Shown here: positions 3,252-32,632 of the stretch, in pieces
Layout: every line of letters begins with the position of its first letter
Position numbering within the stretch: the stretch's first letter is position 1
IMG/VR virus record: IMGVR_UViG_3300006634_000003
Span: 1-34,218 of that record
Direction: 5' to 3' (one strand)
DNA length: 34,218 bases
Source of the DNA: a virus
Position numbers and translations under genes: made by a program
The notes under the pieces: generated by a model
Seen by the model: only the letters and a program-made list of their open reading frames with translations
Database searches by the model: none
Told to the model about the DNA's origin: nothing

Positions 3252-4397
3252 ATGACGTACAGAAACTCAATACAGACAATTGGAGACCTTGAATCCCTCT
3301 ACTATGGAGACCTCTTCTCCAAGCAGTACATGCAGAAAAGCGATGCGCCAATGCTTACTTCCACCTCTGGTATTTACAACCAGATTTATGGTGCAAAGGT
3401 TTGGGTAAACCTGAATCTTGAAGCCAATGCATTTGGTATGTTGAACAAGACTCCTTGGAAACAGTCCGGTTGGAGGCTTATCACAACCCGTGCTCTCGGA
3501 ACTTCTGGAAGCGGTGGAGTTGCTGAAAATGCTGCACTTCCAGATACCACAAAACCCACCTTCAAAGAGGTTGCTACCAAACCCAAGACCGTTGCACACA
3601 CCTTCGACAGTTCCGAAGTCATGCAGTACATGGGTACAGTGGACGATTCCCTTGGAGATGTCATGGGAGTTCTGCGTGAACACATGGCAAAGGAACATGC
3701 AGAACAGATCAATAAGATGCTCCTGAAAGATGCTTCTGCTGAAGCCGCAGCAGCCAGTGGAGACCGTGCTGCAGCCGACATGTACAATATCGAATCCCTT
3801 GACCGTATAGTGTCCAGTGATGCAGAAGAAGACGCATTTGGTGGAACCTATAATGGTTGGTTCGATGTATTCAGCCTTGATAGGGATTCCACAACTGACT
3901 ACGATGCACAGGTCAGCCACAACTCTGGTACAGACCGTTCCTTGTCCTTGTCCCTCATTGATAGTATGTTCACCAACCTGTGGACTGCTGGTGGAAATCC
4001 AAAGGTCATTATGACCGGATATGACTCCCTCATGGCAACCCAACAGCTCTTGCAGGCACAGCAGAGATTCATGGACACCAAGAGAGTAACACCTTCCGTA
4101 AACGGTATTAAAGGTGTAGATGGTGTAGATGCAGGATTCGTTGTTGCAACATACAATGGTGTTCCATTCATACCATCCAAAGACATGTGTCAGGATACCC
4201 TTTCAAGGATGTTCTTCCTCGATACCGACTATCTGGAAATGAGAATTGCAAAACCAACCCAGTATTTCGAGTCCGGTATCCTTTCTGGAGACCCCTTCGG
4301 AATTAACCGTCTTGGTCAGGAAGGACTTTACCGTACAATGGGTGAAGCAACCTGCCAGTGGTTTGGCGTACAGGGTAAGATCAGGGATTTGCAGTAA
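3252..4397 (+). CDS. major capsid protein (HK97 fold), magrovirus/halovirus-like
   Basis: KSDAPMLTSTSGIYNQIYGAKVWVNLNLEANAFGMLNKTPWKQSGWRLIT closely recalls archaeal head-tail virus MCPs (recalled, not searched). Size is 381 aa and it follows the protease. Confidence 0.9.
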   Translation: MTYRNSIQTIGDLESLYYGDLFSKQYMQKSDAPMLTSTSGIYNQIYGAKVWVNLNLEANAFGMLNKTPWKQSGWRLITTRALGTSGSGGVAENAALPDTTKPTFKEVATKPKTVAHTFDSSEVMQYMGTVDDSLGDVMGVLREHMAKEHAEQINKMLLKDASAEAAAASGDRAAADMYNIESLDRIVSSDAEEDAFGGTYNGWFDVFSLDRDSTTDYDAQVSHNSGTDRSLSLSLIDSMFTNLWTAGGNPKVIMTGYDSLMATQQLLQAQQRFMDTKRVTPSVNGIKGVDGVDAGFVVATYNGVPFIPSKDMCQDTLSRMFFLDTDYLEMRIAKPTQYFESGILSGDPFGINRLGQEGLYRTMGEATCQWFGVQGKIRDLQ

Positions 4398-6703: not shown

Positions 6704-7351
6704 ATGTCTAAAATAACACCTTATGCCCACATTAAATGCAACGGTAACGCAAACGACATTAGTGGCAATGATAATCACGGTACAGTTTACGGTGCGTCAT
6801 TAACTGATGATAGATTTGGTCATCCTAATTCTGCTTACAATTTCGATGGTACAGATGATTACATAGAGTTACCACACGTATTATCTGGGGCTAACAGGTT
6901 TACTATTGTATGTTGGGTTAAAACAACACAACAGACAAGCGGCAGTTTTCGATACACTGACCCTGTAATATTGGGTACTGGACAGTTGACTGGTATCAGT
7001 GCAGATTTCCTGATAACAAATTATAATGGTAATTTTGCATGGTTAGATGAGTTTTACACATCGAGAGTATCACATGACACAGGTGAATTCATTGCTGACG
7101 GAATGTGGCATCAATTAATCGTTGTCAGAAATGGTGAAAATCTTTACTTCTATCTTGACGGTGTTAATGTAGGCGAAAATAGTACTGGTTCAAATACAGT
7201 TAGAGACAGTCCAATATATTTAGGACACTCGGATGGTACGTTATACTACGATGGTATGATTGATGACGTAAGAATTTACAACCAACCACTTACACCGACA
7301 CAGGTTGATTACATTTACACAATGACTAAACGGAAATATGGGAGAAGATGA
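6704..7351 (+). CDS. LamG/concanavalin A-like domain protein 2
   Basis: GNANDISGNDNHG..DRFGHPNSAYNFDG..WHQLIVV..YLDG..GMIDDVRIYNQPLT. Confidence 0.9.
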   Translation: MSKITPYAHIKCNGNANDISGNDNHGTVYGASLTDDRFGHPNSAYNFDGTDDYIELPHVLSGANRFTIVCWVKTTQQTSGSFRYTDPVILGTGQLTGISADFLITNYNGNFAWLDEFYTSRVSHDTGEFIADGMWHQLIVVRNGENLYFYLDGVNVGENSTGSNTVRDSPIYLGHSDGTLYYDGMIDDVRIYNQPLTPTQVDYIYTMTKRKYGRR

Positions 7352-19038: not shown

Positions 19039-19293
19039 TCAGAGCCATGCGTCAAGGGAGTTCTTGGGCTTCTCCGGAGGTTCCGTCTTGATGGGTGGGG
19101 TATATTGAGGTTCTACATAAAAAGGTTTGGAATTTGAATCTTCGGGTTCAAAAAGGGCAAGGAGGTCGTAACCTGCCATTGTGCCCTTCCCTATAACCTT
19201 GTTCTCATTACCAAGGACATGGAATCTTACGCCATATCCTATCTGTTCCACCACATCTATTCGATTGCCAGTTCTCTTTTCTATGTGAATCAT
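19039..19293 (-). CDS. hypothetical protein (84 aa)
   Basis: ATGA overlap with the upstream helicase gene. Confidence 0.65.
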   Translation of the reverse strand: MIHIEKRTGNRIDVVEQIGYGVRFHVLGNENKVIGKGTMAGYDLLALFEPEDSNSKPFYVEPQYTPPIKTEPPEKPKNSLDAWL

Positions 19294-20594
19294 AATACCA
19301 ATCCAGGCAATAATGCATTAATGTTTGCCTTTTTGGGTTTAATCATTTTCACATTATTACCAACATTCTTTTCTTCAAAGTAATCCTTGTTGATAAGAGA
19401 TTTAATATGTGATCTGGCGGTACTTTCAGAAGTGTGAGTTGCCATGCCAAAGGAAGCCGACATTGCACGCAAACCAACCCAACCACCTTCTGCTGTGGAC
19501 ATCTTCTCGTATTCATCCATCAAAAGCTTGAGGTGTGTCTTCTCTTTCTGAACCCCGTCATCCTTCTGTCTTGTAGAAACTTCAAGGAGTGTGAGGATTG
19601 AAGCCATTGCAGGTTTTATCATAGTTTCATATGCATAGTTGATATCTTCATTTTTGATATTTGTCCTTCCATGCATTACTGCATGGTGACAGGCAATTAC
19701 ATACATTTGATTCTGATATCTAGGCACAAATCCATTATACAACTTCTGGATGGAATGTGAAGAATATATTGCAATATCATACAGGCTACGCACACGATTT
19801 TTCAGGAGTGGTTTTACTCTACTGAAATCAAAGGTAAGTTTCTTGCGTCCTGCGGTCTGAATCTTCTTCAAGTGTTTCATGATCTCATCATCATAATCCA
19901 CAATCTCGGAGTCTTCACCAAGATTATCAATATCCATCTGGGAATTGTTCACCCTGTCCTGATAAGTAAGTTCCTTGGGAACCATGAACATTCTGGGCAG
20001 GAGTCCGGTATGTACGACCAGAGATTCGAATTTTTCAGGCACGTAAGAGGTGAAGAAGAAACTGGAATGTACTGGAAGTTCAATGGGGTCTCCATGAGCA
20101 AGTTTCTTTTTGATAATATTTGATGGTGTGCCTATTGGATTCATTGCCATCTGGAAATACAACTTCATATTTTCATTGTTGTTATTTGTATTCAGCAGGA
20201 CTTCGGCTTCATCGAAATGAATAACATCCGAAGAGGCAAGAATACCTGGGCAATGTTCATATTCAGTTACCTTATCATTATATTCATTGTACTTGGTAAC
20301 CTGTTCTACGGTTCCCAAAAGTGCAGCATCCGTGGCTGCCCCTATCGAATTATGTTCCATACTCAAATCTTTCATGCAATTTACAATATAATCCAGTGCT
20401 ACGGACTTGCCGGAACCCGTATCCATCATTACCCATGGATGTATCCTACAATCTATAATCTGTCCTTTTTTCTTCACGCTCTGATATCTCAAACACTGTC
20501 CAATAATAAGGTGTAGGGCTGCACGCCCGAACAACCTATTATTATATGAATAGTCAGAGAATCTTTTATCCCAATATTCAATAAGTTCATGCAT
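19290..20594 (-). CDS. MCM-like AAA+ ATPase/helicase with C-terminal winged helix
   Basis: Walker A MDTGSGKS, ATDAALLG, Walker B HFDE, Arg finger GLLPRM, sensor-2-like PRYQ. Start reassigned to MHELIEY (20594), overlapping the nrdD stop. Confidence 0.7.
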   Translation of the reverse strand: MHELIEYWDKRFSDYSYNNRLFGRAALHLIIGQCLRYQSVKKKGQIIDCRIHPWVMMDTGSGKSVALDYIVNCMKDLSMEHNSIGAATDAALLGTVEQVTKYNEYNDKVTEYEHCPGILASSDVIHFDEAEVLLNTNNNNENMKLYFQMAMNPIGTPSNIIKKKLAHGDPIELPVHSSFFFTSYVPEKFESLVVHTGLLPRMFMVPKELTYQDRVNNSQMDIDNLGEDSEIVDYDDEIMKHLKKIQTAGRKKLTFDFSRVKPLLKNRVRSLYDIAIYSSHSIQKLYNGFVPRYQNQMYVIACHHAVMHGRTNIKNEDINYAYETMIKPAMASILTLLEVSTRQKDDGVQKEKTHLKLLMDEYEKMSTAEGGWVGLRAMSASFGMATHTSESTARSHIKSLINKDYFEEKNVGNNVKMIKPKKANINALLPGLVL

Positions 20595-22527
20595 CGTATG
20601 TTTCTCCCTCTGTATCGTAATGCTGTCTGTTTTTCCATTCGGTTTCCTTGGATGGATGGTACTTGGATATTCTCTCCACATATCCGGTTATCCTCTGCAT
20701 ATAATCCACAATTTCGGCTCCACATTTCGGGCATTCTTCGTGTTTGCCTATTGTACCATGTTCATTCCTACAAATGGAGAACACTGGAGACAGAGCAAAG
20801 TAACCAAGGTCTGTATTGCACATTTTTATAACAAGGTCTTTCACGCCTTCGGGGTGTGGTGAATTCTCTCCAATGAAGAAGAGCAAGATATTACCACCAT
20901 CACACAATTTATGGAAAGGAGCTTCAGCCATTATCTTCTCTGGCAGGGAAAGTCCATCATCATATGGTACGTGAGTGGCTGGTGCATATTCAAAATCATG
21001 ATCATCCGTTCCGTGGATGGACAGGGATGTCTTGTCGTCTCCATATTCCCGACGTATGTACTTGATATTGCCTCTCACCATGTGATTGTTGGAAGATTCA
21101 TTGGGTGGAGCTTCTATTCCCCATTGTGGAGCATCGGGTTCATCCATCCATGTAGATATTATGTCCTTGGTGAAATGAATAACTGCCTGTGCAAATTCAT
21201 TGCCCTGCTTGCCTTTCAATCCATTCTCGAATCCCATGTGGACAAGCATATCATGCAGGAAGGCTGTGCCTACCAGAAGTCTCCTCTTCTCCGGATCATA
21301 ATATTTGATTCCGGAAGGTGTTTCTTTTGCCAGCCAAGAGTTAATGCCCCATTCATAAATGGAATCCCTTACCATGTCCTGTAGGTTCTCTCCGGTTTCT
21401 TTAATGATCCGAAGCCTGTCGGTCAGAATTGTCATGAATTCCCTTTTCATAGTATCATAGAACAAGGTCTGGTACTTATCCTTATCCATGGTAACTATAT
21501 CACCGAACATTCCAGAATCCAGTTTGGCTTCGGCAATCTTACGGGCTTCATAACCGATAATTGCATAATTCATGGTTATTATCCTGTCGGAACCCGTGCC
21601 CATTTCTCCACCTGACCAAATACCACCCATGGTATCAAACTTGACTCTTACCCTGCAGCATTGGGAAGATACGCAATCTTCATCTCCACCATCTGCCTGC
21701 ATGTAATCCGGAGACAAATTTACAATATACAGAGAACCATTATGAGCCATAGTCTCGAAGGCTTCAGTCCACAATTGAGAATCCCAATCAGAATCAGGTG
21801 TGACTGTGGTGGCGACCAATGGATAGGTAAATGGTATTCCACCCTTCATGCCTTCTCTCAAGATTTCCATGAACACGGAGGCAATAATTTCTGCATATGC
21901 TTGTATACTTACATGGGAGTATGTAATTTTATGATCTTTATTTATTTCATCGTACAACCCTTTATCCCCATCAAATATGACCGGACGGTTTTGCAAGGGT
22001 TTCGGACATTCAAAGCGTATTCCTGTATTGATGAAAGGGGGTTTTCCACCAGTACGGGTTATTTGATTGCAATTGTAAAAGAACTTCTGGAGTTCCTGTT
22101 TGATTTCATTTCTTTCCAGTCTGTCGGCATATGCATAGGGAGCAAGGAACCAGTTCACCCAATCCATGGACTGTGCGCCTGCAAAATGTCCCTGCGAGTA
22201 CATAGCAAAGGAGTATAAGTGGTCGATGGCAGAACCGAGATGGGATGCTGGGTATGCCTTGAGGGTTGGTAAATCCAATCCTGCCGAGAGGGGGATTGTG
22301 GGATCGATACTGTTGCAGTATGGTCCAATCTGGTCTGAATCATGTACATATATCAAACCATCCTCGTGTGCCTGTTTGGCTTCTGGTGAAAGGAAATTAT
22401 TCATTATAAAATTACGTATTTCGTATGAACCAAAAAGGGTCATCATTTGCTGATGACTCCTTGATTCACTGGCATTGGACTTGTCTTCTGCCCCGTACAG
22501 ATATTCTTCAATCGTCAACTTAGTCAT
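20587..22527 (-). CDS. nrdD: anaerobic (class III) ribonucleoside-triphosphate reductase
   Basis: YVHD..PYC, GAQS, QCCR, C-terminal Zn site CRNEH..CPKCG and glycyl-radical motif QRITGY. Confidence 0.93.
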   Translation of the reverse strand: MTKLTIEEYLYGAEDKSNASESRSHQQMMTLFGSYEIRNFIMNNFLSPEAKQAHEDGLIYVHDSDQIGPYCNSIDPTIPLSAGLDLPTLKAYPASHLGSAIDHLYSFAMYSQGHFAGAQSMDWVNWFLAPYAYADRLERNEIKQELQKFFYNCNQITRTGGKPPFINTGIRFECPKPLQNRPVIFDGDKGLYDEINKDHKITYSHVSIQAYAEIIASVFMEILREGMKGGIPFTYPLVATTVTPDSDWDSQLWTEAFETMAHNGSLYIVNLSPDYMQADGGDEDCVSSQCCRVRVKFDTMGGIWSGGEMGTGSDRIITMNYAIIGYEARKIAEAKLDSGMFGDIVTMDKDKYQTLFYDTMKREFMTILTDRLRIIKETGENLQDMVRDSIYEWGINSWLAKETPSGIKYYDPEKRRLLVGTAFLHDMLVHMGFENGLKGKQGNEFAQAVIHFTKDIISTWMDEPDAPQWGIEAPPNESSNNHMVRGNIKYIRREYGDDKTSLSIHGTDDHDFEYAPATHVPYDDGLSLPEKIMAEAPFHKLCDGGNILLFFIGENSPHPEGVKDLVIKMCNTDLGYFALSPVFSICRNEHGTIGKHEECPKCGAEIVDYMQRITGYVERISKYHPSKETEWKNRQHYDTEGETYDA

Positions 22528-23573
22528 TCTTGATTTCTCCTATCTATCATTGCTTGCGGAGATTTACCGGTGCTTATCAGGTCGAATTTAATACCGAAAT
22601 GATCTTCCACATCCTCTATCCACTGCTGGCTTTCAGGACTTAGTTCGGAGTAGGAAGTTGCACCAATGTTCCCCTTAAATAAATAATCTGCGAACATCAG
22701 AGCAAACTTATTCGGCTGATTAATATTCAGGGCTTCCCATATATCTGTCTTGGAAAATTCAAAGACACGACGAACACGGTTGGTGACTGTTGTTCTTTCA
22801 TTTACAGAATCCAGACCGCTCCTTTCACAGACAATACCCCAATCAATTTCATCGGCTCCGGTATCTCCGGAATTTCCGGCTACCCTGATCGGATAAACCC
22901 TCATGACACCCCAGATATCTCCGGCAAGTTTGGGTGAGATTCCACAATCGGAGAAGAATCCAGATACATTACAATCTCTGGAGGTACATTTGGGATAGTG
23001 GTGAGATGTAGTTAAGGACAAATGACACCCCTGCGTGCCTTCAATACATACCTTACCACTCATGGCATGTGCGTTGATAATAGGTATGGTATCACAAATT
23101 GTTGCGAATTGCTTGAGTTCCGGTACTTCATGGGCTTTTCTGACCTTGCCCTGTCTCTGAATCTTTTCTACAGTGCAGGCACCAATACCTTCTTGTGTTG
23201 AACCGATCTTCTGGAACATGCCTTTCTGGGATTCAGCTTCGGCATGACGGTGTTCTCCGACAGTTACCCTACTATCAATAAAGAGCCTGCTACGAATGTC
23301 CGTGATTCCGGCTTCTTCAATCATCTTGATTTCTTTTTCAAGAATGTCTGCTCTGATCATTCCACCTGCGCCAATGACAATTATTATATTGGGATTTATC
23401 CACTGACAGGGAATGGTCTGCATTTTATAATGCTTACCTTTATATGTCAGGGTATGACCAGCTTGCCATGCCCCAACCCTTACGCATGCGTCATACTCAT
23501 TTGCAAGGTGTGCAGATATCTTTCCTTTTCCTTCTGAACCATACTGTAATCCAACTATTGAATCTACTGGCAT
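22524..23573 (-). CDS. purZ: PurZ/PurZ0-like 2-amino-deoxyadenylosuccinate synthetase (adenylosuccinate synthetase superfamily)
   Basis: GLQYGSEGKG (Ser where PurA has catalytic Asp), QAGHT, EGTQG, YPKCTSRD, YPIRVAGNSG, ERTTVTNRVRRVFEFS, MFAD. Confidence 0.8.
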   Translation of the reverse strand: MPVDSIVGLQYGSEGKGKISAHLANEYDACVRVGAWQAGHTLTYKGKHYKMQTIPCQWINPNIIIVIGAGGMIRADILEKEIKMIEEAGITDIRSRLFIDSRVTVGEHRHAEAESQKGMFQKIGSTQEGIGACTVEKIQRQGKVRKAHEVPELKQFATICDTIPIINAHAMSGKVCIEGTQGCHLSLTTSHHYPKCTSRDCNVSGFFSDCGISPKLAGDIWGVMRVYPIRVAGNSGDTGADEIDWGIVCERSGLDSVNERTTVTNRVRRVFEFSKTDIWEALNINQPNKFALMFADYLFKGNIGATSYSELSPESQQWIEDVEDHFGIKFDLISTGKSPQAMIDRRNQE

Positions 23574-23575
23574 TT

Positions 23576-24136
23576 TTACTCTCCGTGTTGTTCTATAATT
23601 TCTCTGATCGCCTGATGAACGTCCATGATTGATTGATTACCATCTACCTTGTGATAAATTGGCATAAGTTGCCTACCAATCATGTAATTCGCCAGCCTCT
23701 CGTACTCTTCTTTTACTCTTTCTTGGAACTCGACCTTGCCATATATATCGTCTTCGGTAACAAACGGGGTACCCGTAAGAATAATCACGATATCTGTTTT
23801 GATATATGAATCAATAAGGTGATTAATCCTGTGTAGCCACTCCTCATCAAGTCCTTCAGCAATACCATAAGCGATGCCTGACTGGTACCACCTGTCGAAG
23901 ATTACCAGACCATCTGTTTGGTTTATCTTATGTTGTGTCTCAATCTTATTCAAGGTCATTAATGCCTGAAAAGACACAGGTTCATAGGGTAGGACTTTAT
24001 TCAGGATTTCCCTGATTACCTTACCACTATAAAAATCCTCATCTGGGTACTTTACTTTTTTGGCTCCCATTCCTACAAGCAAATCTGCCTGTGTGGTCTT
24101 TCCTATTTTATCTGGTCCTTCAATTACTACACGCAT
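23576..24136 (-). CDS. tmk: thymidylate-kinase-family dNMP kinase
   Basis: VIEGPDKIGKTTQ P-loop; KYPD; FDRWYQSGIAYG; VDGNQSIMDV. Confidence 0.9.
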   Translation of the reverse strand: MRVVIEGPDKIGKTTQADLLVGMGAKKVKYPDEDFYSGKVIREILNKVLPYEPVSFQALMTLNKIETQHKINQTDGLVIFDRWYQSGIAYGIAEGLDEEWLHRINHLIDSYIKTDIVIILTGTPFVTEDDIYGKVEFQERVKEEYERLANYMIGRQLMPIYHKVDGNQSIMDVHQAIREIIEQHGE

Positions 24137-24711: not shown

Positions 24712-25674
24712 TTAGTCTTTATATTCATAAGGACAAGGGTTGTCAGGAGTATCTGTACAGTATCCCATATCCTTAATCCTATGACAATTATAACACACCA
24801 TTGCTCTGTCGTATATTATATCTAACTGCCCTTCGGCAATGCAATGATTGTATTTTTCAGGATTCCAGACCTTACTCAAATATTGAGCAATGGCATCCTT
24901 GGAGTATGCAAGTTCTACAAGAGAGGATATAATAATAAAACGTTGCCTGTTGTCCGGATTTGGACCGCACATCATACAATTTTTATTTATATCTTCCTTG
25001 CGTACTTCAATATCATCCAGATCGATGTCTTTGGTATTATGTACCTTGTATTCTTCATCGAACTTGGACAGGTCGATACTCTTGCTTCCCACAAACATTC
25101 CCGAAGACAAGGGTTGTTGTTTTTTCGCCAGCGACCTTAGGGCTTGTAGGTCAAGCTCACGAAATTGTTGATCTGTTAAAGGAATACAAAAACACTGGGC
25201 TCCACCATTCCACGTATTAATCATTCTGACATGCTGGTTGGCATTTACACCTACAGCATCATCTTTCATAATACCAGCATTACTTTGAATGTATTGCATG
25301 GCGTTTTTAATGGAAGCGGTGGGATACTGTATAGGTTTAGAATTGGTGGTGGTACACGACAAAACTATGTGGAGACCGCTTCCAGAAAGAATACGAAGTC
25401 TCTTCACATCATAGTCTTCTAAGAACCTATCGAGTTTACGTGCTTCTTCCAGTGGGTTATACCCTTTATCCGGATCAAAGTCAAATAACAATTTATCAAC
25501 CATTGCGGTCTCATAGACCGGTTTCCCATTATTGAGCCAGCCATAAGAATAAAGTGAAGTGCTTACCATATTGGATTTACCATTATGGGCATTCACGTAA
25601 TCTCTCAATTCTTCCCATGAATGAACTATTCTTCTTTTACGGGAAACTTCTCTGGGAAATGAATTGTATAGCAT
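24712..25674 (-). CDS. priS: archaeo-eukaryotic primase (PriS catalytic domain fused to a PriL-like Cys-rich C-terminal domain)
   Basis: LFDFD (motif I), SGSGLH (motif II), RMINT (motif III); C-terminal C..NPDNRQRF..YNC..I..GYC..CP. Confidence 0.8.
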   Translation of the reverse strand: MLYNSFPREVSRKRRIVHSWEELRDYVNAHNGKSNMVSTSLYSYGWLNNGKPVYETAMVDKLLFDFDPDKGYNPLEEARKLDRFLEDYDVKRLRILSGSGLHIVLSCTTTNSKPIQYPTASIKNAMQYIQSNAGIMKDDAVGVNANQHVRMINTWNGGAQCFCIPLTDQQFRELDLQALRSLAKKQQPLSSGMFVGSKSIDLSKFDEEYKVHNTKDIDLDDIEVRKEDINKNCMMCGPNPDNRQRFIIISSLVELAYSKDAIAQYLSKVWNPEKYNHCIAEGQLDIIYDRAMVCYNCHRIKDMGYCTDTPDNPCPYEYKD

Positions 25675-28458: not shown

Positions 28459-28901
28459 TCAATCAACTCTGGATTTTCGTAGATGTTTCCAATTATTTCT
28501 ACTTCGCCTCGTGAAATATATCCACCTGCACAGGAATCTAATGTGACAAAATCACCGTTGCCTACTTCTACTGCCCACCTGCCACATTCCCATACAACAT
28601 GTCGGATACACCACTGTTTATCATTACCGTTCAATGCTATTTTCACAACATCCCCTTCGTAAATCTCCTTGCCGTTTTTATCACGAAGTCCGGTGAATTG
28701 TCCAATTGTTTCAGGTTTGACTACATGTTTTACAGTACCAACAGCCAATGACTTTGTATCGTCATTATCAATAATCCATGTGTTATGGGGATCTTGTAGA
28801 ACTCCTGAACCGTGCACCATTTTGGATTCAAATTTATGCCGCCCAAAATTTTTCGGCGGTTTTGTCATCGCTCTGAATTTAATTTCTCTCATTTTTTCCA
28901 A
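28455..28901 (-). CDS. yopX: YopX-family protein (copy 2)
   Basis: MREIKFRA..VKPETIGQFTGLRDKNGKEIYEGDVV..EIIGNIYENPELI; the start may be 28892. Confidence 0.9.
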   Translation of the reverse strand: MEKMREIKFRAMTKPPKNFGRHKFESKMVHGSGVLQDPHNTWIIDNDDTKSLAVGTVKHVVKPETIGQFTGLRDKNGKEIYEGDVVKIALNGNDKQWCIRHVVWECGRWAVEVGNGDFVTLDSCAGGYISRGEVEIIGNIYENPELIE

Positions 28902-29190
28902 TCTCCTTCCATGTTTCCAGTGTAAGTTCTACAGAATCCCAGTTTGAAACCGCACGATCATCTATATAAATAGTTGCCCTGGGTTTGTCAAGCAGAATTT
29001 CGTCGTATGGAATATCATGTGCAATAAGAAATCCTATTATCTCGTTGTACCTCTCCACATTATTGGCAGTCCATATAGTTATATGCCAGCCTTCTTCACG
29101 GAGTTTCTGCATCATGGATTTAGAACGTGGGATTAACTCCCACGTATCTTCATCGCAGATTATTCCGTCAAAATCTACAACCGCTCTCAT
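28879..29190 (-). CDS. minimal HAD-superfamily phosphatase
   Basis: Motif I VDFDGII, motif II IWTA, motif III/IV KP..YIDDRA. Confidence 0.85.
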   Translation of the reverse strand: MRAVVDFDGIICDEDTWELIPRSKSMMQKLREEGWHITIWTANNVERYNEIIGFLIAHDIPYDEILLDKPRATIYIDDRAVSNWDSVELTLETWKEIGKNERN

Positions 29191-30138: not shown

Positions 30139-30287
30139 TTTCTTTTCTCCGGTTCTTCAAATTCAGTCTTACATTGCCTACATCTATACTTGGGTTGTTT
30201 ACGTACCCTTATGCGGAAATCGGCAGACTTACAGTTTGGGCAGGCAAGTCCGGAACTGTAAAGTTTGCCCTTTCTGAATTTTATCAT
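30135..30287 (-). CDS. small Zn-ribbon (CPxC...YRCxxC) protein, 50 aa, absent from the ORF track
   Basis: MIKFRKGKLYSSGLACPNCKSADFRIRVRKQPKYRCRQCKTEFEEPEKRK*; ATGA overlaps with both polB and the next gene. Confidence 0.75.
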   Translation of the reverse strand: MIKFRKGKLYSSGLACPNCKSADFRIRVRKQPKYRCRQCKTEFEEPEKRK

Positions 30288-32632
30288 GTTAAGAAATCCG
30301 CCAATGATCGCTGTCCTATCAATCCATTAATATCCCAGCCCATGGAGGAATACAAAAATTCCAGCTTTTTCATTGTAGCATCTCTCATTGCTTTATAATC
30401 TACAACTACTCCATCGGGTAGTGATGTATCCTCATCCACGGCAATGTAATTGGCTGGTGGATATTTGGAAGCTACCTTCTTGACCTTCACATAAAAGGGT
30501 TTGGTGCCTTCCTTGAAGTTCGTATTCAGGTTCTCATTTGACCACATGGCTGCAACCGCACGGTAGTAAGATTCCGGATAGGCGTGCAAGGGCTTCTTGA
30601 TTTCTGCCGGAACTCCAATCTCGGTTAATGGATATTGCCCTTTTTCTACCTTCTTCAATTCAGTAGAGTATTTCAAGTCCAATTCCCTCTTGGGCTTATA
30701 ATTCAGAAGGTCAAGGATTAGCTCCTTCTGCAGGTTCCGTGCCAGAGGGGAAGAATCTGAACGAATAGCATCAAAACCCTTCACTTCTAGCGCAGAAGGA
30801 TCATCCTCATCAAAGGTGGTACCGTCAATCCACCAAAGTTTGATGGCGTATCTGGTCTTGCCTGAAAAAATGCCGTTGCGTGCGACCTTTTCAAAGTCAA
30901 TGTTCATTTTTGCATGTTCATATGGTATGTTATATTGGCGTAGATGGAGAGGGAATTTACTATTCAGGTGTTCCTTGACTTCATTGCCGACTTCAATCAA
31001 CTTCTTGAGACTATTGTATTTGGTTACGAAACCTACCGAATCCGTGTGCCCGAATACCCACTGATATCCAAGTTTGTTGACCTCATGTCCGCAGAAGTCA
31101 ATTACACCACGGGTAATGTGTGTTACAGCATTAGCAATCCTTACATCATAAAACTTACAATGCTTGTCGGCTACATCACCATATACCGTGTTAATTGCTA
31201 CCTTGTATGCTTCACGGATTGCATTGGCAACCTTCCATTCTTTGGATTTGTACTTTTCTTTATCTCGCTTCTTGCCCCACTCGTCTTTCTTTTGAAAGAT
31301 ATCTTCAAGGAACGTCACGTATGCTCCCTTACGCACGTGGTGTGGCATGAAGCACGTACCCCCGATATCGATACAATCGTCAAGGGACACGCCTTCTGGG
31401 AGATTGGAGCCATCTTCATTTACCAATGTTTCTACAGACATATTACCGGACATCATGGAGAAGGGATAGGCAGAGGTCAAATCCTCAAATATAACATTCT
31501 CATGAAGTCCTACAACTGGTGGTCGGGGTTCGGCACCTTTTACCTTGCCATGCTCGGAATCGTGGGATGGGTATATGAACTGTGGCATTGCCCTACTCAT
31601 GGCGGTTTCTACCATCTTGCCCGAATACAGGGTGTCTTCCAGATTGCAGCCAAAAATCCTATGGAAGGTAACATGAGAACTCAAGATTGAAAGTTCCCTG
31701 TCAAGGAGCATCATCTTGTCCACATCATGATAATTATACTCCAATACTTCATCCGGATTCCTTGCCCATGCACGAGCAAGATATGCTGCATTCAATCCAT
31801 CATATTTGGCAAGTCCAAGTTCCCTTTCCAGAATATCATTCAGGGAATTTTTAATATATTTGCGCCTCTTCAGTCTCAAATATCCAGCTCTGTAATCAAA
31901 GAGTGCTACTCCTTTAATCTTGGCTTTGGGATTCCCATTAAAGTCCACGTTCACACTTACCGACTTCATTGGACTTATTGGGCTAATGTCAATATTCAAA
32001 GTGTTACACCGTCTGATTATGTAAACAATATCATAACCTAACAGGTTAAACCCTGCAATGACATCCGGACCGAATTTAGCAATATACTTTATCCAAGCAT
32101 TCAACATCTCGGTCTCTGTGGGATACCAGTATTCAATCCTGCCTGCAGTATTGAACTTCTGGGCTTCCTTGATTGATGAGTGAAAGCAGAACTGCACGAC
32201 CTTGCTGGAATGATTGAACTGGAAACCGATTATAATTATAGGCTCCGGTGCATCCATCATATACTTATTCGTGATGGGGGTATTATTGGAAGCTACCTCA
32301 ATATCCAGTCCACAGACCAGAGGATCAGCTTTTTCTTCAAATCCTTCCTCTATTCTATCAATCCAGTATCGTGTGGTAAAGGGAGTCTTGGCTTCGTAGT
32401 GTCTGTCACCACGCAATTTGCCAATATCCTGTGCCATCTTACATTCGACTTTCTTGACTTTCACGCCATCCTTGGCAGTATAAACATCTCCCTCTTTGCA
32501 TCCTTGCGGAGTAGGAACATCTACCGGAAGATAGAAGTAGGGGTGGAAATCCCACACTTCGTAGGACTTGCCTCCCCACGGAAATACTACAATTCCCGAT
32601 CTATCGTTCTTGACAACCTGCTCGATCTGCAT
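30284..32632 (-). CDS. polB: family B DNA polymerase with 3'-5' exonuclease
   Basis: ExoI LDIE, ExoII GFNLLGYD, ExoIII YNYHD; Pol motifs DLTSAYP, KVAINTVYG, FGHTDS, KTRY. Confidence 0.95.
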   Translation of the reverse strand: MQIEQVVKNDRSGIVVFPWGGKSYEVWDFHPYFYLPVDVPTPQGCKEGDVYTAKDGVKVKKVECKMAQDIGKLRGDRHYEAKTPFTTRYWIDRIEEGFEEKADPLVCGLDIEVASNNTPITNKYMMDAPEPIIIIGFQFNHSSKVVQFCFHSSIKEAQKFNTAGRIEYWYPTETEMLNAWIKYIAKFGPDVIAGFNLLGYDIVYIIRRCNTLNIDISPISPMKSVSVNVDFNGNPKAKIKGVALFDYRAGYLRLKRRKYIKNSLNDILERELGLAKYDGLNAAYLARAWARNPDEVLEYNYHDVDKMMLLDRELSILSSHVTFHRIFGCNLEDTLYSGKMVETAMSRAMPQFIYPSHDSEHGKVKGAEPRPPVVGLHENVIFEDLTSAYPFSMMSGNMSVETLVNEDGSNLPEGVSLDDCIDIGGTCFMPHHVRKGAYVTFLEDIFQKKDEWGKKRDKEKYKSKEWKVANAIREAYKVAINTVYGDVADKHCKFYDVRIANAVTHITRGVIDFCGHEVNKLGYQWVFGHTDSVGFVTKYNSLKKLIEVGNEVKEHLNSKFPLHLRQYNIPYEHAKMNIDFEKVARNGIFSGKTRYAIKLWWIDGTTFDEDDPSALEVKGFDAIRSDSSPLARNLQKELILDLLNYKPKRELDLKYSTELKKVEKGQYPLTEIGVPAEIKKPLHAYPESYYRAVAAMWSNENLNTNFKEGTKPFYVKVKKVASKYPPANYIAVDEDTSLPDGVVVDYKAMRDATMKKLEFLYSSMGWDINGLIGQRSLADFLT

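What the first reader, a model, noticed from the sequence alone, without database searches (positions are those of the whole stretch)
22524..23573. PurZ0-like enzyme in an archaeal tailed virus: candidate 2-aminoadenine (Z) genome outside bacteriophages
Seen: the synthetase reads GLQYGSEGKG, with Ser13 where canonical PurA has the catalytic Asp (GxQWGDEGKG). It also has a short archaeal-type length (349 aa) and the motifs YPIRVAGNSG, YPxCTSR and TTVTxRVRRVFEFS. Established: the Asp-to-Ser/Gly change is the diagnostic of phage PurZ/PurZ0, which convert dGMP + Asp to dSMP en route to dZTP. Recalled from the literature and not verified here: PurZ uses ATP with an NFxN-type motif, while PurZ0 keeps the guanine-specifying Asp and uses GTP. 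This protein has MFAD, a hybrid of Phe and Asp that points to a GTP-using PurZ0-like or intermediate form. It also has QAGH instead of NAGH. Inference: every other gene marks this as an archaeal virus (PolB, AEP, MCM-like, GGTGA SD, halovirus-like MCP). To my knowledge Z-DNA has been shown experimentally only in bacteriophages, so this may be a Z-genome system in the archaeal virosphere.
Basis: partly seen in the sequence, partly recalled or inferred. Interest (0 to 1): 0.95.

Follow-up and report, generated by a model that had tools for sequence, protein, structure and literature searches.

The report
PurZ-type enzyme in archaeal virus
A tailed virus from oil-field and subsurface samples, whose capsid and polymerase match only archaeal viruses, carries a new branch of the enzyme family that some bacteriophages use to replace adenine in their DNA with 2-aminoadenine; the virus may do the same, but this is unproven.

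Summary
ORF 22524-23573(-) is a 349-aa short-type PurA homologue with Ser in place of catalytic Asp13, plus the QAGH, YPIRVAGNSG, TTVTNRVRRV and MFAD motifs.

In a careful ML tree it falls in a 100/100-supported Ser/Gly13 superclade that also holds phage PurZ and PurZ0. That superclade is sister to archaeal Asp13 PurA, not inside it. The protein is in neither the PurZ nor the PurZ0 clade (AU test against a PurZ0 grouping, p = 0.008). It scores below NCBI's cut-offs for both PurZ and archaeal PurA.

Its nearest non-family relatives are phages that carry DatZ-like HD, dGTP-diphosphohydrolase or dUTPase partners, which supports a true PurZ-type function. The retained Asp suggests GTP as the phosphate donor.

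The complete 56.5-kb genome, found in NCBI, has no DatZ or DutZ. It has a Tmk-like kinase, NrdD, ThyA and a weak MazG-like candidate.

An archaeal host is well supported by the capsid, PolB and a related module in a Methanosarcinales-order genome.

One caveat is that Ser13 is not by itself diagnostic. At least 562 cellular genomes carry Ser13 relatives. In DPANN archaea the gene sits among housekeeping genes, and in 4 of 5 genomes checked it is the only PurA homologue.

The earlier scan notes concern only this same window.

The parts
22524..23573 (-). PurZ-type (Ser13) short adenylosuccinate-synthetase homologue. Predicted GTP-dependent dGMP + Asp -> dSMP synthase of a third lineage.
   Evidence: PF00709 E 1.7e-48. 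Residue table. Trees. AU test. NCBIfam scores below both the PurZ and the PurA cut-offs. AF2 model pLDDT 95.5, TM 0.84-0.93 to Pyrococcus horikoshii PurA, PurZ0 and phiVC8 PurZ.
23576..24136 (-). Divergent Tmk-family P-loop (d)NMP kinase, immediately upstream of the PurZ-type gene. Candidate dZMP (or dTMP) kinase.
   Evidence: PF02223 E 6.9e-16. TIGR00041 61 bits, below the 83-bit cut-off. Best solved matches are yeast and vaccinia TMPK. A Tmk-family gene lies directly upstream in L004, L149 and L151 and two small ORFs upstream in L147. Kinase domains are fused to, or in operon with, Ser13 homologues in cells.
20587..22527 (-). Class III anaerobic ribonucleotide reductase NrdD, overlapping the PurZ-type stop codon.
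   Evidence: PF13597 E 6.4e-88. The same position is conserved in all relatives.
19290..20681 (-). Conserved 463-aa replication protein (DUF3987 / SF3-helicase-like). Not a nucleotide-pool enzyme.
   Evidence: Atlas feature hit 0.98 to viral clusters in which 11% carry PF13148. 370 homologues. No Pfam or PHROG hit.
24712..25674 (-). Candidate archaeo-eukaryotic primase-polymerase.
   Evidence: PF21686 LigD_Prim-Pol E 6e-4, 19.8 bits, below the 27.4-bit cut-off. Conserved in relatives at ~50% identity.
30284..32632 (-). Family B DNA polymerase, the only replicase candidate (no PolA/DpoZ).
   Evidence: PF00136 and PF03104. Best phage-collection matches are haloarchaeal tailed viruses, E to 5e-43.
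28879..29190 (-). Minimal (capless) HAD-type phosphatase, 103 aa, with DFDG ... K ... DD motifs. Substrate unknown.
   Evidence: phrog_1238 E 1.2e-21. Weak HAD hits in Pfam and NCBIfam. Sequence read.
3252..4397 (+). HK97-type major capsid protein of the archaeal tailed-virus lineage. Main evidence for host domain.
   Evidence: tblastn: 9 of 9 hits are archaeal viruses (HCTV-1, HVTV-1, HCTV-5, Methanofastidiosa vir519). 55% identity to ~100-kb Tara contigs, one named Poseidoniales. 41% identity to a contig in a Methanosarcinales-order genome.

Best explanation
The gene encodes a PurZ-type enzyme of a previously unnamed third lineage.

It is inferred to condense dGMP with aspartate to give N6-succino-2-amino-2'-deoxyadenylate (dSMP). 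The retained Asp at the guanine-specifying position suggests GTP, not ATP, as phosphate donor.

The gene is carried by a 56.5-kb archaeal tailed virus that probably infects methanogens of the Methanosarcinales.

The inferred pathway is as follows. NrdD supplies dGTP. A pyrophosphohydrolase, possibly the 104-aa MazG-like protein next to ThyA, gives dGMP. The PurZ-type enzyme makes dSMP. Host PurB releases dZMP. The adjacent Tmk-like kinase and host NDK raise it to dZTP. The viral PolB incorporates it.

No dATP-destroying enzyme was found, so substitution of A by Z may be only partial, or it may depend on an unrecognised factor.

Shown here: family placement, active-site residues, gene context and the archaeal-virus affinity. 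Inferred: substrate, phosphate donor, every pathway step and the presence of Z in the DNA.
For: 1. Careful ML tree. The Ser/Gly13 superclade has 100/100 support and a branch of 0.70, and is sister to archaeal Asp13 PurA (99/93). The query sits in a 100/99 clade of 10.
2. That 10-member clade includes phage contig P0049 (HD_3/YfbR-like + dUTPase + ADK kinase). It also includes L007 and L010, whose neighbouring HD proteins hit S-2L DatZ at E 3e-6 and 3e-8.
3. The next viral clade (P0037) has an HD protein plus PF18909 dGTP diphosphohydrolase. P0058 has PolA plus PF18909.
4. 52 of the 80 best IMG/VR relatives have a dUTPase, HD or dGTP-diphosphohydrolase homologue within 10 kb, and 49 have PolA.
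5. Two of the three substrate-contacting residues the S-2L structure paper calls unique to PurZ are present: S23 = Ser and T273 = Thr. The RV-AGNSG loop insert is also present. Asp stands at the Q308/N297 position, as in PurZ0 (PMC8342488).
6. The block Tmk - PurZ-type - NrdD is conserved in four related viruses of 51-63% identity, adjacent in three and with two small ORFs between Tmk and the PurZ-type gene in L147.
7. Canonical guanylate kinase, which finishes the pathway in bacterial hosts, rings in 10 of 10 bacterial controls. It rings in 0 of 4 archaeal controls and in 1 of 31 Methanosarcinales-order genomes. This gives a rationale for a virus-borne kinase.
8. Archaeal virus. A relative carries a Methanosarcinales-type S-layer domain. 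There is a related structural module in a Methanosarcinales-order genome.
Against: 1. No DatZ, DutZ/dUTPase, DUF550 or NUDIX was found in the complete genome, either by stored Pfam hits or by phmmer with phage references.
2. The MazG-like call is weak: Pfam E 0.016, hhalign probability 2%, and a poor single-sequence fold with no structural match.
3. The sister clade (94/78) is made of DPANN cellular genes set among ribosomal, FtsZ and Sec genes. In 4 of 5 of those genomes it is the only PurA homologue. Ser13 enzymes close to this one may therefore have a non-Z role.
4. The base-pocket Asn of NAGH is Gln here, and Y203 is Lys. Both depart from every characterised PurZ and PurZ0.
5. The protein scores below NCBI's PurZ cut-off.
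6. Tmk together with ThyA is an ordinary dTTP module and needs no connection to Z.
7. No biochemical or DNA-composition data exist.
Confidence: 0.55

Rival explanations
1. The enzyme is a nucleotide-salvage or auxiliary metabolic enzyme with no role in DNA modification. It could be a Ser13 variant that still makes adenylosuccinate from IMP, or one that acts on a ribonucleotide such as GMP. It would boost adenine nucleotide supply during infection, as its DPANN cellular relatives may do.
For: The sister clade is made of DPANN cellular genes in housekeeping neighbourhoods. In 4 of 5 of those genomes it is the sole PF00709 member, and PurB is present in 2 of 5. The clade-specific N49Q change is shared with DPANN. 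The virus has no dATP-removing enzyme. The structural model is marginally closest to Pyrococcus PurA (TM 0.90/0.93). The best NCBIfam score is to the archaeal PurA model (242.5 bits).
Against: The catalytic Asp13, which the NAR 2026 paper reports as 99% conserved in its PurA group (PMC12884076), is absent. Gly-to-Thr at S-2L position 273 and the loop insert are PurZ features. Viral relatives inside the same 100/99 clade sit beside DatZ homologues. The protein is far below the PurA equivalog cut-off (368 bits).
Confidence: 0.25
2. The enzyme does convert dGMP to dSMP, but the purpose is to manipulate the nucleotide pool, not to build a Z genome. It might drain dGMP/dGTP, or make 2-aminoadenine nucleotides that poison or evade a host system.
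For: Ser13 homologues occur in non-viral cellular operons that look regulatory or defence-like. One type is IrrE/M78 + Macro-like, then kinase::PurZ-like fusion, then DUF7002. The other is RNaseH-like + DUF429, then PurZ-like, then DCD-like, then dNK. The kinase part of the fusion weakly matches the kinase region of PADLOC's dCTPase defence model (E 5e-7). The virus lacks the dATP-clearing genes that go with full substitution.
Against: No such role is documented for any family member. The gene sits in the virus's replication and nucleotide-supply module, like purZ in known Z phages.
Confidence: 0.12
3. The contig is a bacteriophage, not an archaeal virus, so the finding would be just another phage PurZ relative.
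For: One syntenic 6-kb contig is binned in a Lachnospiraceae (Hespellia) MAG. YopX domains are common in Bacillota phages. SD-like motifs are not specific to either domain.
Against: All 9 MCP hits in the phage collection are archaeal viruses. The best PolB hits are haloarchaeal viruses. The MCP is 55% identical to proteins on ~100-kb marine (Tara) contigs, one named in a Poseidoniales MAG. A related TerL-portal-MCP-lysin module lies in a Methanosarcinales-order genome. A relative carries PF07752, which rang only in Methanosarcina among 14 controls. The Hespellia contig is a short, purely viral fragment.
Confidence: 0.05

Closest known systems
PurZ0 (GTP-dependent dSMP synthase of actinophages; Gordonia phage Archimedes, PDB 7VF6)
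   Same: Ser at the Asp13 position, TTVT with Thr, the RV-AGNSG loop, and a retained guanine-specifying Asp (S/T-M-x-D there, M-F-A-D here). It is the best PDB sequence hit, at E 1.6e-39.
   Different: Only ~31% identical. It forms a separate 100/100 clade, and an exclusive grouping is rejected (AU p = 0.008). PurZ0 phages have PolA plus DutZ/DmtZ, whereas this virus has PolB, NrdD and Tmk and no dUTPase. It has QAGH in place of NAGH.
PurZ (ATP/dATP-dependent; phiVC8 PDB 6FM1, S-2L PDB 7ODX; NCBIfam NF038379)
   Same: Same superclade, the same Ser and Thr substitutions, and the same predicted chemistry.
   Different: It lacks the N-F-x-N/Q adenine-binding motif. It scores 226 bits against a cut-off of 300. 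No datZ-mazZ cluster lies beside it. It is in a separate clade.
Archaeal short PurA (Pyrococcus horikoshii, PDB 5K7X/2D7U; NCBIfam NF003295)
   Same: Same ~340-aa architecture, GTP-type Asp, and the closest overall fold (TM 0.90/0.93).
   Different: PurA has catalytic Asp13, G-T-V-T and no loop insert. The query scores 242.5 bits against a cut-off of 368. It is separated from PurA by a 100/100 branch.
Uncharacterised metagenomic phage PurZ-like genes with DatZ-like or dGTP-diphosphohydrolase neighbours (contigs of P0049, P0037, P0058, L007, L010)
   Same: Nearest relatives outside the virus family (41-44% identity), with P0049, L007 and L010 in the same 100/99 clade. Same motifs.
   Different: Those are bacterial-type phages (DnaG/DnaB, Pol III alpha or PolA) with recognisable dATP- or dGTP-hydrolysing partners, which this virus lacks.
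Archaeal tailed viruses: haloarchaeal HCTV-1/HVTV-1/HCTV-5 group and marine group II 'magroviruses'
   Same: MCP 31-33% identical (haloviruses) and 55% identical (~100-kb marine Tara contigs, one named in a Poseidoniales MAG). PolB is the replicase.
   Different: No halovirus or other archaeal-virus name appears in the 60 listed rows or the ten named organism tallies of the PF00709-type tblastn search (218 records; 15 further organism names not shown). No archaeal-virus paper in the searchable library mentions adenylosuccinate synthetase.

Membership tests
PurZ sensu stricto (NF038379; phiVC8 / S-2L type) | Catalytic Asp13 replaced by Ser | tested here: met
   GSEGKG. Ser aligns with S-2L S23.
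PurZ sensu stricto (NF038379; phiVC8 / S-2L type) | Thr at S-2L position 273 (T-T-V-T where PurA has G-T-V-T), and the loop insertion after the conserved R-V | tested here: met
   ER-TTVT-NR and RV-AGNSGDTG. The feature is taken from PMC8342488.
PurZ sensu stricto (NF038379; phiVC8 / S-2L type) | Adenine-specific donor pocket N-F-x-N/Q (S-2L N305, F306, Q308) | tested here: not met
   M-F-A-D: Asp as in PurA and PurZ0.
PurZ sensu stricto (NF038379; phiVC8 / S-2L type) | Score above NCBIfam's curated cut-off | tested here: not met
   226 bits against a cut-off of 300.
PurZ sensu stricto (NF038379; phiVC8 / S-2L type) | Z-cluster synteny with datZ and mazZ | tested here: not met
   No DatZ homologue in the complete 56.5-kb genome. 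The only candidate is a weak MazG-like ORF far from the gene.
PurZ sensu stricto (NF038379; phiVC8 / S-2L type) | Catalyses dGMP + Asp + NTP -> dSMP; virion DNA contains Z | not testable with these tools
   Needs an enzyme assay and LC-MS of DNA.
PurZ0 (actinophage type) | Ser13 together with a retained guanine-specifying Asp (GTP donor) | tested here: met
   Both residues are present. Donor use itself was not tested.
PurZ0 (actinophage type) | Membership of the PurZ0 clade | tested here: not met
   PurZ0 is a separate 100/100 clade. Holding the virus family together with PurZ0 costs 40.5 lnL, AU p = 0.008.
PurZ0 (actinophage type) | Accompanied by dutZ (all 98 PurZ0 genomes per PMC12884076) and usually dmtZ and PolA | tested here: not met
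   No dUTPase-fold, NDT or PolA gene in the complete genome.
Canonical archaeal adenylosuccinate synthetase PurA (NF003295) | Catalytic Asp13 | tested here: not met
   Ser here; Asp in all 20 archaeal short PurA sequences sampled.
Canonical archaeal adenylosuccinate synthetase PurA (NF003295) | Equivalog score cut-off and clade membership | tested here: not met
   242.5 bits against 368. Outside the PurA clade (99/93), across a 100/100 branch.
Archaeal tailed viruses (Caudoviricetes infecting Archaea) | Hallmark structural and replication genes closest to known archaeal viruses | tested here: met
   MCP: 9 of 9 hits are archaeal viruses. PolB: top hits are haloarchaeal viruses. MCP is 55% identical to proteins on ~100-kb marine (Tara) contigs, one named in a Poseidoniales MAG.
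Archaeal tailed viruses (Caudoviricetes infecting Archaea) | Direct host link (CRISPR spacer, provirus, isolate) | tested here: inconclusive
   No spacer-like match in 250 Methanosarcinales-order genomes. There is a related 23-kb structural module on one contig of such a genome, and a host-type S-layer domain in a relative.

The most novel reading that the evidence does not exclude
An archaeal virus family replicates a 2-aminoadenine-containing genome with a family B polymerase and without any DatZ- or DutZ-type dATP clearance. It uses its own Tmk-like kinase because archaeal hosts lack the bacterial-type guanylate kinase that finishes dZTP synthesis in phage hosts.

Beyond the virus, the hundreds of cellular Ser13 homologues would mean that 2-aminoadenine nucleotide chemistry also operates in cells, in salvage or in defence. 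These homologues include the sole PurA-like gene of many DPANN archaea, the kinase fusions flanked by IrrE/Macro-like and DUF7002 genes, and the operons with DCD-like and dNK genes.
Probability: 0.2. Interest if true: 0.9.

Novelty: new variant of a known kind. Interest (0 to 1): 0.68.

Why it matters
As far as I know and could find in the searchable papers, Z-DNA has been demonstrated only in bacteriophages. If this enzyme works as inferred, the Z pathway extends to viruses of Archaea, with a different replicase (PolB) and a different accessory set (Tmk-like kinase, NrdD, no DatZ). That would show which parts of the pathway are essential.

The finding also bears on the proposed descent of PurZ from archaeal PurA. 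It adds a large third lineage that is sister neither to PurZ nor to PurZ0.

The finding is directly testable. The complete genome is public (GCA_003940385.1, contig RWII01000001.1). Near-identical sequence is present in subsurface samples and many oil-field metagenomes.

The by-product may matter as much. The Ser13 'signature' is widespread in cellular genomes, so annotating every Ser13 PurA homologue as PurZ is unsafe.

Tried and rejected
- **Close viral relatives in IMG/VR, single-protein query.** Nothing found. The alignment query worked.
- **DatZ, MazZ, DutZ and DUF550 references against all ORFs of the virus family (phmmer).** The references came from S-2L, Bm1, QH, ZP6, Archimedes and JeffCo. 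No hit below E 0.1. The same was true with HD and PF18909 references from sister phages.
- **An H...HD...D regex over the complete genome.** Only implausible hits in structural or nuclease genes.
- **AF2 single-sequence model of the MazG-like protein.** pTM 0.35, and Foldseek found no match. hhalign against four MazZ sequences aligned the EExxE...ExADV motifs, but at probability 2%. The MazG-like call therefore stays weak.
- **The 463-aa gene downstream of NrdD as a candidate missing nucleotide enzyme.** It looks like a DUF3987-type replication protein.
- **Spacer-like DNA matches.** The first try used the 'order' of a MAG labelled Methanosarcinales. Its genomes were 0.6-2.1 Mb, which I take to be a DPANN-like group, and it gave only chance-level short hits. 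The second try, on true Methanosarcinales-order genomes, gave no spacer-type match.
- **The G519 genome.** It has no PurZ-type gene and no viral PolB.
- **PADLOC.** No hit for the query.
- **The fold of the query.** It does not discriminate between PurA and PurZ.
- **RNA runs.** No RNA holder is listed for this DNA.
- **Paper searches.** Searches for the assembly accession and for PurZ in archaeal viruses found nothing relevant. Tong et al. 2023 is not held.
Full report
**1. Observation**

The ORF at 22524-23573 on the minus strand is real: 349 aa with an ATG start. It matches Pfam Adenylsucc_synt at E 1.7e-48.

The best solved-structure hits by sequence are nearly tied:
- PurZ0 of Gordonia phage Archimedes (7VF6): 1.6e-39
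- Pyrococcus horikoshii PurA (2D7U/5K7X): 5e-39
- phiVC8 PurZ (6FM1): 7e-38
- S-2L PurZ (7ODX): 1e-22

Ser at the Asp13 position is invariant across 43 homologues of 40-64% identity. All 20 archaeal short PurA and all 17 long PurA sequences that I pulled from genomes have Asp there.

**2. The replicon**

The window is an IMG/VR record that CheckV rates 61% complete. Exact-protein look-ups found the same genome, 100% identical over the overlaps, as a 56,475-bp contig in NCBI assembly GCA_003940385.1. It is circularly permuted relative to the window, and several samples hold ~56.5-kb versions.

The window holds two modules.
- A structural module: prohead protease/scaffold, MCP, LamG-domain proteins, tail tube and a CBM96 fibre protein.
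- A replication and nucleotide module: AAA_24, PolB, two YopX proteins, a minimal HAD phosphatase, a PD-(D/E)XK nuclease, a candidate primase-polymerase (weak, sub-threshold Pfam hit), a Tmk-like kinase, the PurZ-type gene, NrdD and a DUF3987-like protein.

The part of the genome outside the window adds TerL, portal, DUF932, thymidylate synthase ThyA and many small ORFs. Directly downstream of ThyA is a 104-aa ORF with weak MazG and PRA-PH hits (E 0.016 and 0.044) and an EExxE...ExxD motif.

**3. Host domain**

Several lines of evidence point to an archaeal host.
- In 50,697 phage records the MCP hits only nine, all of them archaeal tailed viruses. These are the HCTV-1, HVTV-1 and HCTV-5 group (E to 1e-42) and a Methanofastidiosa virus.
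- The best PolB hits are haloarchaeal tailed viruses.
- In the 5.8-billion-protein set the MCP is 55% identical to proteins on ~100-kb Tara contigs, one of them named in a Poseidoniales MAG. I read these as magrovirus-type contigs.
- A syntenic relative (L151) has a tail-module gene with PF07752. That domain rang only in Methanosarcina acetivorans among 14 control genomes, and in 8 of 41 genomes sampled from the phylum of an Archaeoglobaceae MAG.
- One Methanosarcinales-order genome carries a 23-kb contig with TerL, portal (39%), protease, MCP (41%) and the putative lysin (38%) of this virus type.
- Near-identical DNA occurs in subsurface and oil-field metagenomes from 17 study codes.

I rate an archaeal host at about 0.9 and a Methanosarcinales host at about 0.5. 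No CRISPR-type link was found.

**4. Phylogeny**

I used long PurA as outgroup. Both a quick 85-row tree and a careful 60-row IQ-TREE (LG+C20 PMSF) give the same picture.
- Archaeal Asp13 PurA is one clade (99/93).
- Its sister is a 100/100 superclade (branch 0.70) that holds every Ser13 or Gly13 protein.
- Inside the superclade, PurZ (100/100) and PurZ0 (100/100) are separate clades on an unresolved backbone.
- The query groups with three viruses of its own family (100/96).
- It then falls in a 100/99 clade of ten, with P0017 (same virus family), P0049, L007, L010 and an Actinophytocola gene.
- The sister of that clade is a DPANN cellular clade (94/78).
- Next comes the P0037 phage clade (89/86).

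Forcing the virus family and PurZ0 into one clade costs 40.5 log-likelihood units (AU p = 0.008). 'PurZ0-like' is true of residues, not of descent.

NCBIfam agrees that the protein is neither canonical type. It scores 242.5 bits against the archaeal PurA equivalog (cut-off 368) and 226 bits against the PurZ model (cut-off 300).

**5. Active-site residues**

I mapped the residues onto S-2L numbering from PMC8342488; the table is.
- S23 is Ser and T273 is Thr, where PurA has Gly.
- The insertion after R240-V241 has the PurZ0-like form AGNSG.
- R146, Q190, T132, H52 and R280 are conserved.
- The donor pocket reads M-F-A-D. Asp stands at the Q308/N297 position as in PurZ0 and PurA, so GTP is the likely donor.
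- Two departures are clade-specific. The Asn of NAGH (S-2L N49, part of the base pocket) is Gln, a change shared with the DPANN clade. Y203 is Lys.

The AF2 model is confident (pLDDT 95.5). It superposes about equally on Pyrococcus horikoshii PurA, PurZ0 and phiVC8 PurZ (TM 0.84-0.93), so the fold does not discriminate.

**6. Evidence that this lineage does Z chemistry in viruses**

- The contig of P0049, in the same 100/99 clade, has an HD_3/YfbR-like protein, a dUTPase and an ADK-type kinase near the gene.
- L007 and L010 have HD proteins that hit S-2L DatZ at E 3e-6 and 3e-8.
- P0037 has an HD protein plus PF18909 (dGTP diphosphohydrolase N-terminal domain). P0058 has PolA immediately upstream plus PF18909.
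- Of the 80 best IMG/VR relatives, 50 have a dUTPase homologue, 49 PolA, 11 PF18909-type and 6 DatZ-type within 10 kb.

These are the accessory genes described for Z phages (PMC8342488, PMC12884076).

**7. What is missing here**

None of those accessory genes is detectable in the complete genome of this virus or in its four syntenic relatives. None of the 80 IMG/VR relatives has this virus's PolB, NrdD or MCP.

The virus family is therefore an outlier. Its conserved block is Tmk-like kinase, then PurZ-type, then NrdD.

A recurring link between Ser13 homologues and P-loop nucleotide kinases appears elsewhere too. About half of the cellular homologues are N-terminal kinase fusions (AAA_18/AAA_33/dNK-like). 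Another operon type carries a dNK gene.

Canonical guanylate kinase is cited as the host enzyme that phosphorylates dZMP in bacteria (bioRxiv 10.1101/2025.10.22.683976). It rang in 10 of 10 bacterial controls. It rang in 0 of 4 archaeal controls and in 1 of 31 Methanosarcinales-order genomes. A virus-encoded kinase for dZMP is thus a sensible inference, but it is only an inference. Tmk with ThyA is also a standard dTTP module.

**8. The caveat on 'diagnostic'**

The top 80 all read G-S-E-G-K-G or, in a few cases, G-G-E-G-K-G. Several points follow.
- Bacteria that carry such a gene also have a normal long PurA.
- Two conserved non-viral operons recur.
  - Type 1: IrrE/M78 + Macro-like protein, then kinase::PurZ-like fusion, then DUF7002.
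  - Type 2: RNaseH-like + DUF429 protein, then PurZ-like, then DCD/dUTPase-fold protein, then dNK.
- In DPANN archaea the gene lies among ribosomal protein, FtsZ, SecDF and similar genes. In 4 of 5 genomes checked it is the only PF00709 member.
- The NAR 2026 paper mentions only five 'PurZ-related' cellular sequences, four of them archaeal, taken from Tong et al. 2023.

Ser13 therefore marks a large superfamily in which only the phage PurZ and PurZ0 enzymes have been assayed.

**9. Verdict**

My probability estimates are:

| Reading | Probability |
|---|---|
| Real PurZ-type dSMP synthase | ~0.6 |
| Virion DNA contains some Z | ~0.45-0.5 |
| A is fully replaced by Z | lower, because no dATP-clearing gene is present |

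This is a new variant of a known kind: a third PurZ lineage in a new host domain, with a new accessory set. No archaeal-virus paper in the searchable library mentions adenylosuccinate synthetase.

Noticed in passing
L008-L030 (DPANN MAG contigs; e.g. L008:9977-11152): In Nanoarchaeota, Woesearchaeota and Aenigmatarchaeota MAGs a Ser13 PurA-like gene sits among housekeeping genes (ribosomal proteins, FtsZ, SecDF, an AMP-phosphorylase-like gene). In 4 of 5 genomes checked it is the only PF00709 member, and PurB was found in 2 of 5. Its substrate is unknown. It forms the sister clade of the viral gene.
   Followed up: partly
L025, L035, L045 and others (e.g. L025:7812-11687): A conserved cellular three-gene unit was found in 19-27 of 80 loci across Bacteroidota, Myxococcota, Chloroflexota, Thermoplasmatota and others. 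It consists of an IrrE/Peptidase_M78 + Macro-like protein (~460-540 aa), then a P-loop kinase fused to a Ser13 PurA-like domain (~540 aa), then DUF7002 (~220 aa). It looks like a defence or regulatory module.
   Followed up: partly
L021, L026, L041, L042 and others (e.g. L021:1003-4858; L026:11906-12496): A second conserved cellular operon was found in 17-22 loci (Nitrospira, Dehalococcoidia, Acidobacteriota, Archaeoglobaceae). It consists of an RNaseH-like + DUF429 protein (~530-580 aa), then a Ser13/Gly13 PurA-like gene, then a dCTP-deaminase/dUTPase-fold protein (~300-330 aa), then often a dNK deoxynucleoside kinase. It resembles a Z-cluster but sits in chromosomes.
   Followed up: partly
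L164:10001-11001 (same virus, outside the window): Thymidylate synthase ThyA is followed directly by a 104-aa ORF with weak MazG/PRA-PH similarity and an EExxE...ExxD motif. It is a candidate (d)NTP pyrophosphohydrolase.
   Followed up: partly
L164:7263-8496 (same virus, outside the window): A ~1.2-kb stretch with no called gene lies between divergently oriented small-ORF blocks. It may be a replication origin or control region.
   Followed up: no
G519:C48 (L173 + L174, 23,435 bp): A contig in a Methanosarcinales-order genome carries a related head-tail structural module: TerL, portal 39%, protease 33%, MCP 41% and lysin-like 38% identity. GC is 43%. It carries no PurZ-type gene.
   Followed up: partly
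window 28879-29190 (-): A 103-aa capless HAD-type phosphatase with all four motifs (DFDG, T, K, DD). Small phosphatases of this kind could act on dNMPs. Its role is unknown.
   Followed up: no
A 40-nt stretch at 6761-6800 matched two places ~1.1 kb apart on one contig of a small genome that I take to be DPANN-like (90% and 84% identity). This is probably a shared domain repeat.
   Followed up: no
L005 (JAQVCP010000121.1, 'Hespellia sp.' MAG): This 6.2-kb contig is a fragment of a virus of this family (PD-(D/E)XK nuclease, primase-polymerase-like gene, Tmk, PurZ-type, NrdD in the same order). It is most likely mis-binned into a Lachnospiraceae MAG.
   Followed up: yes
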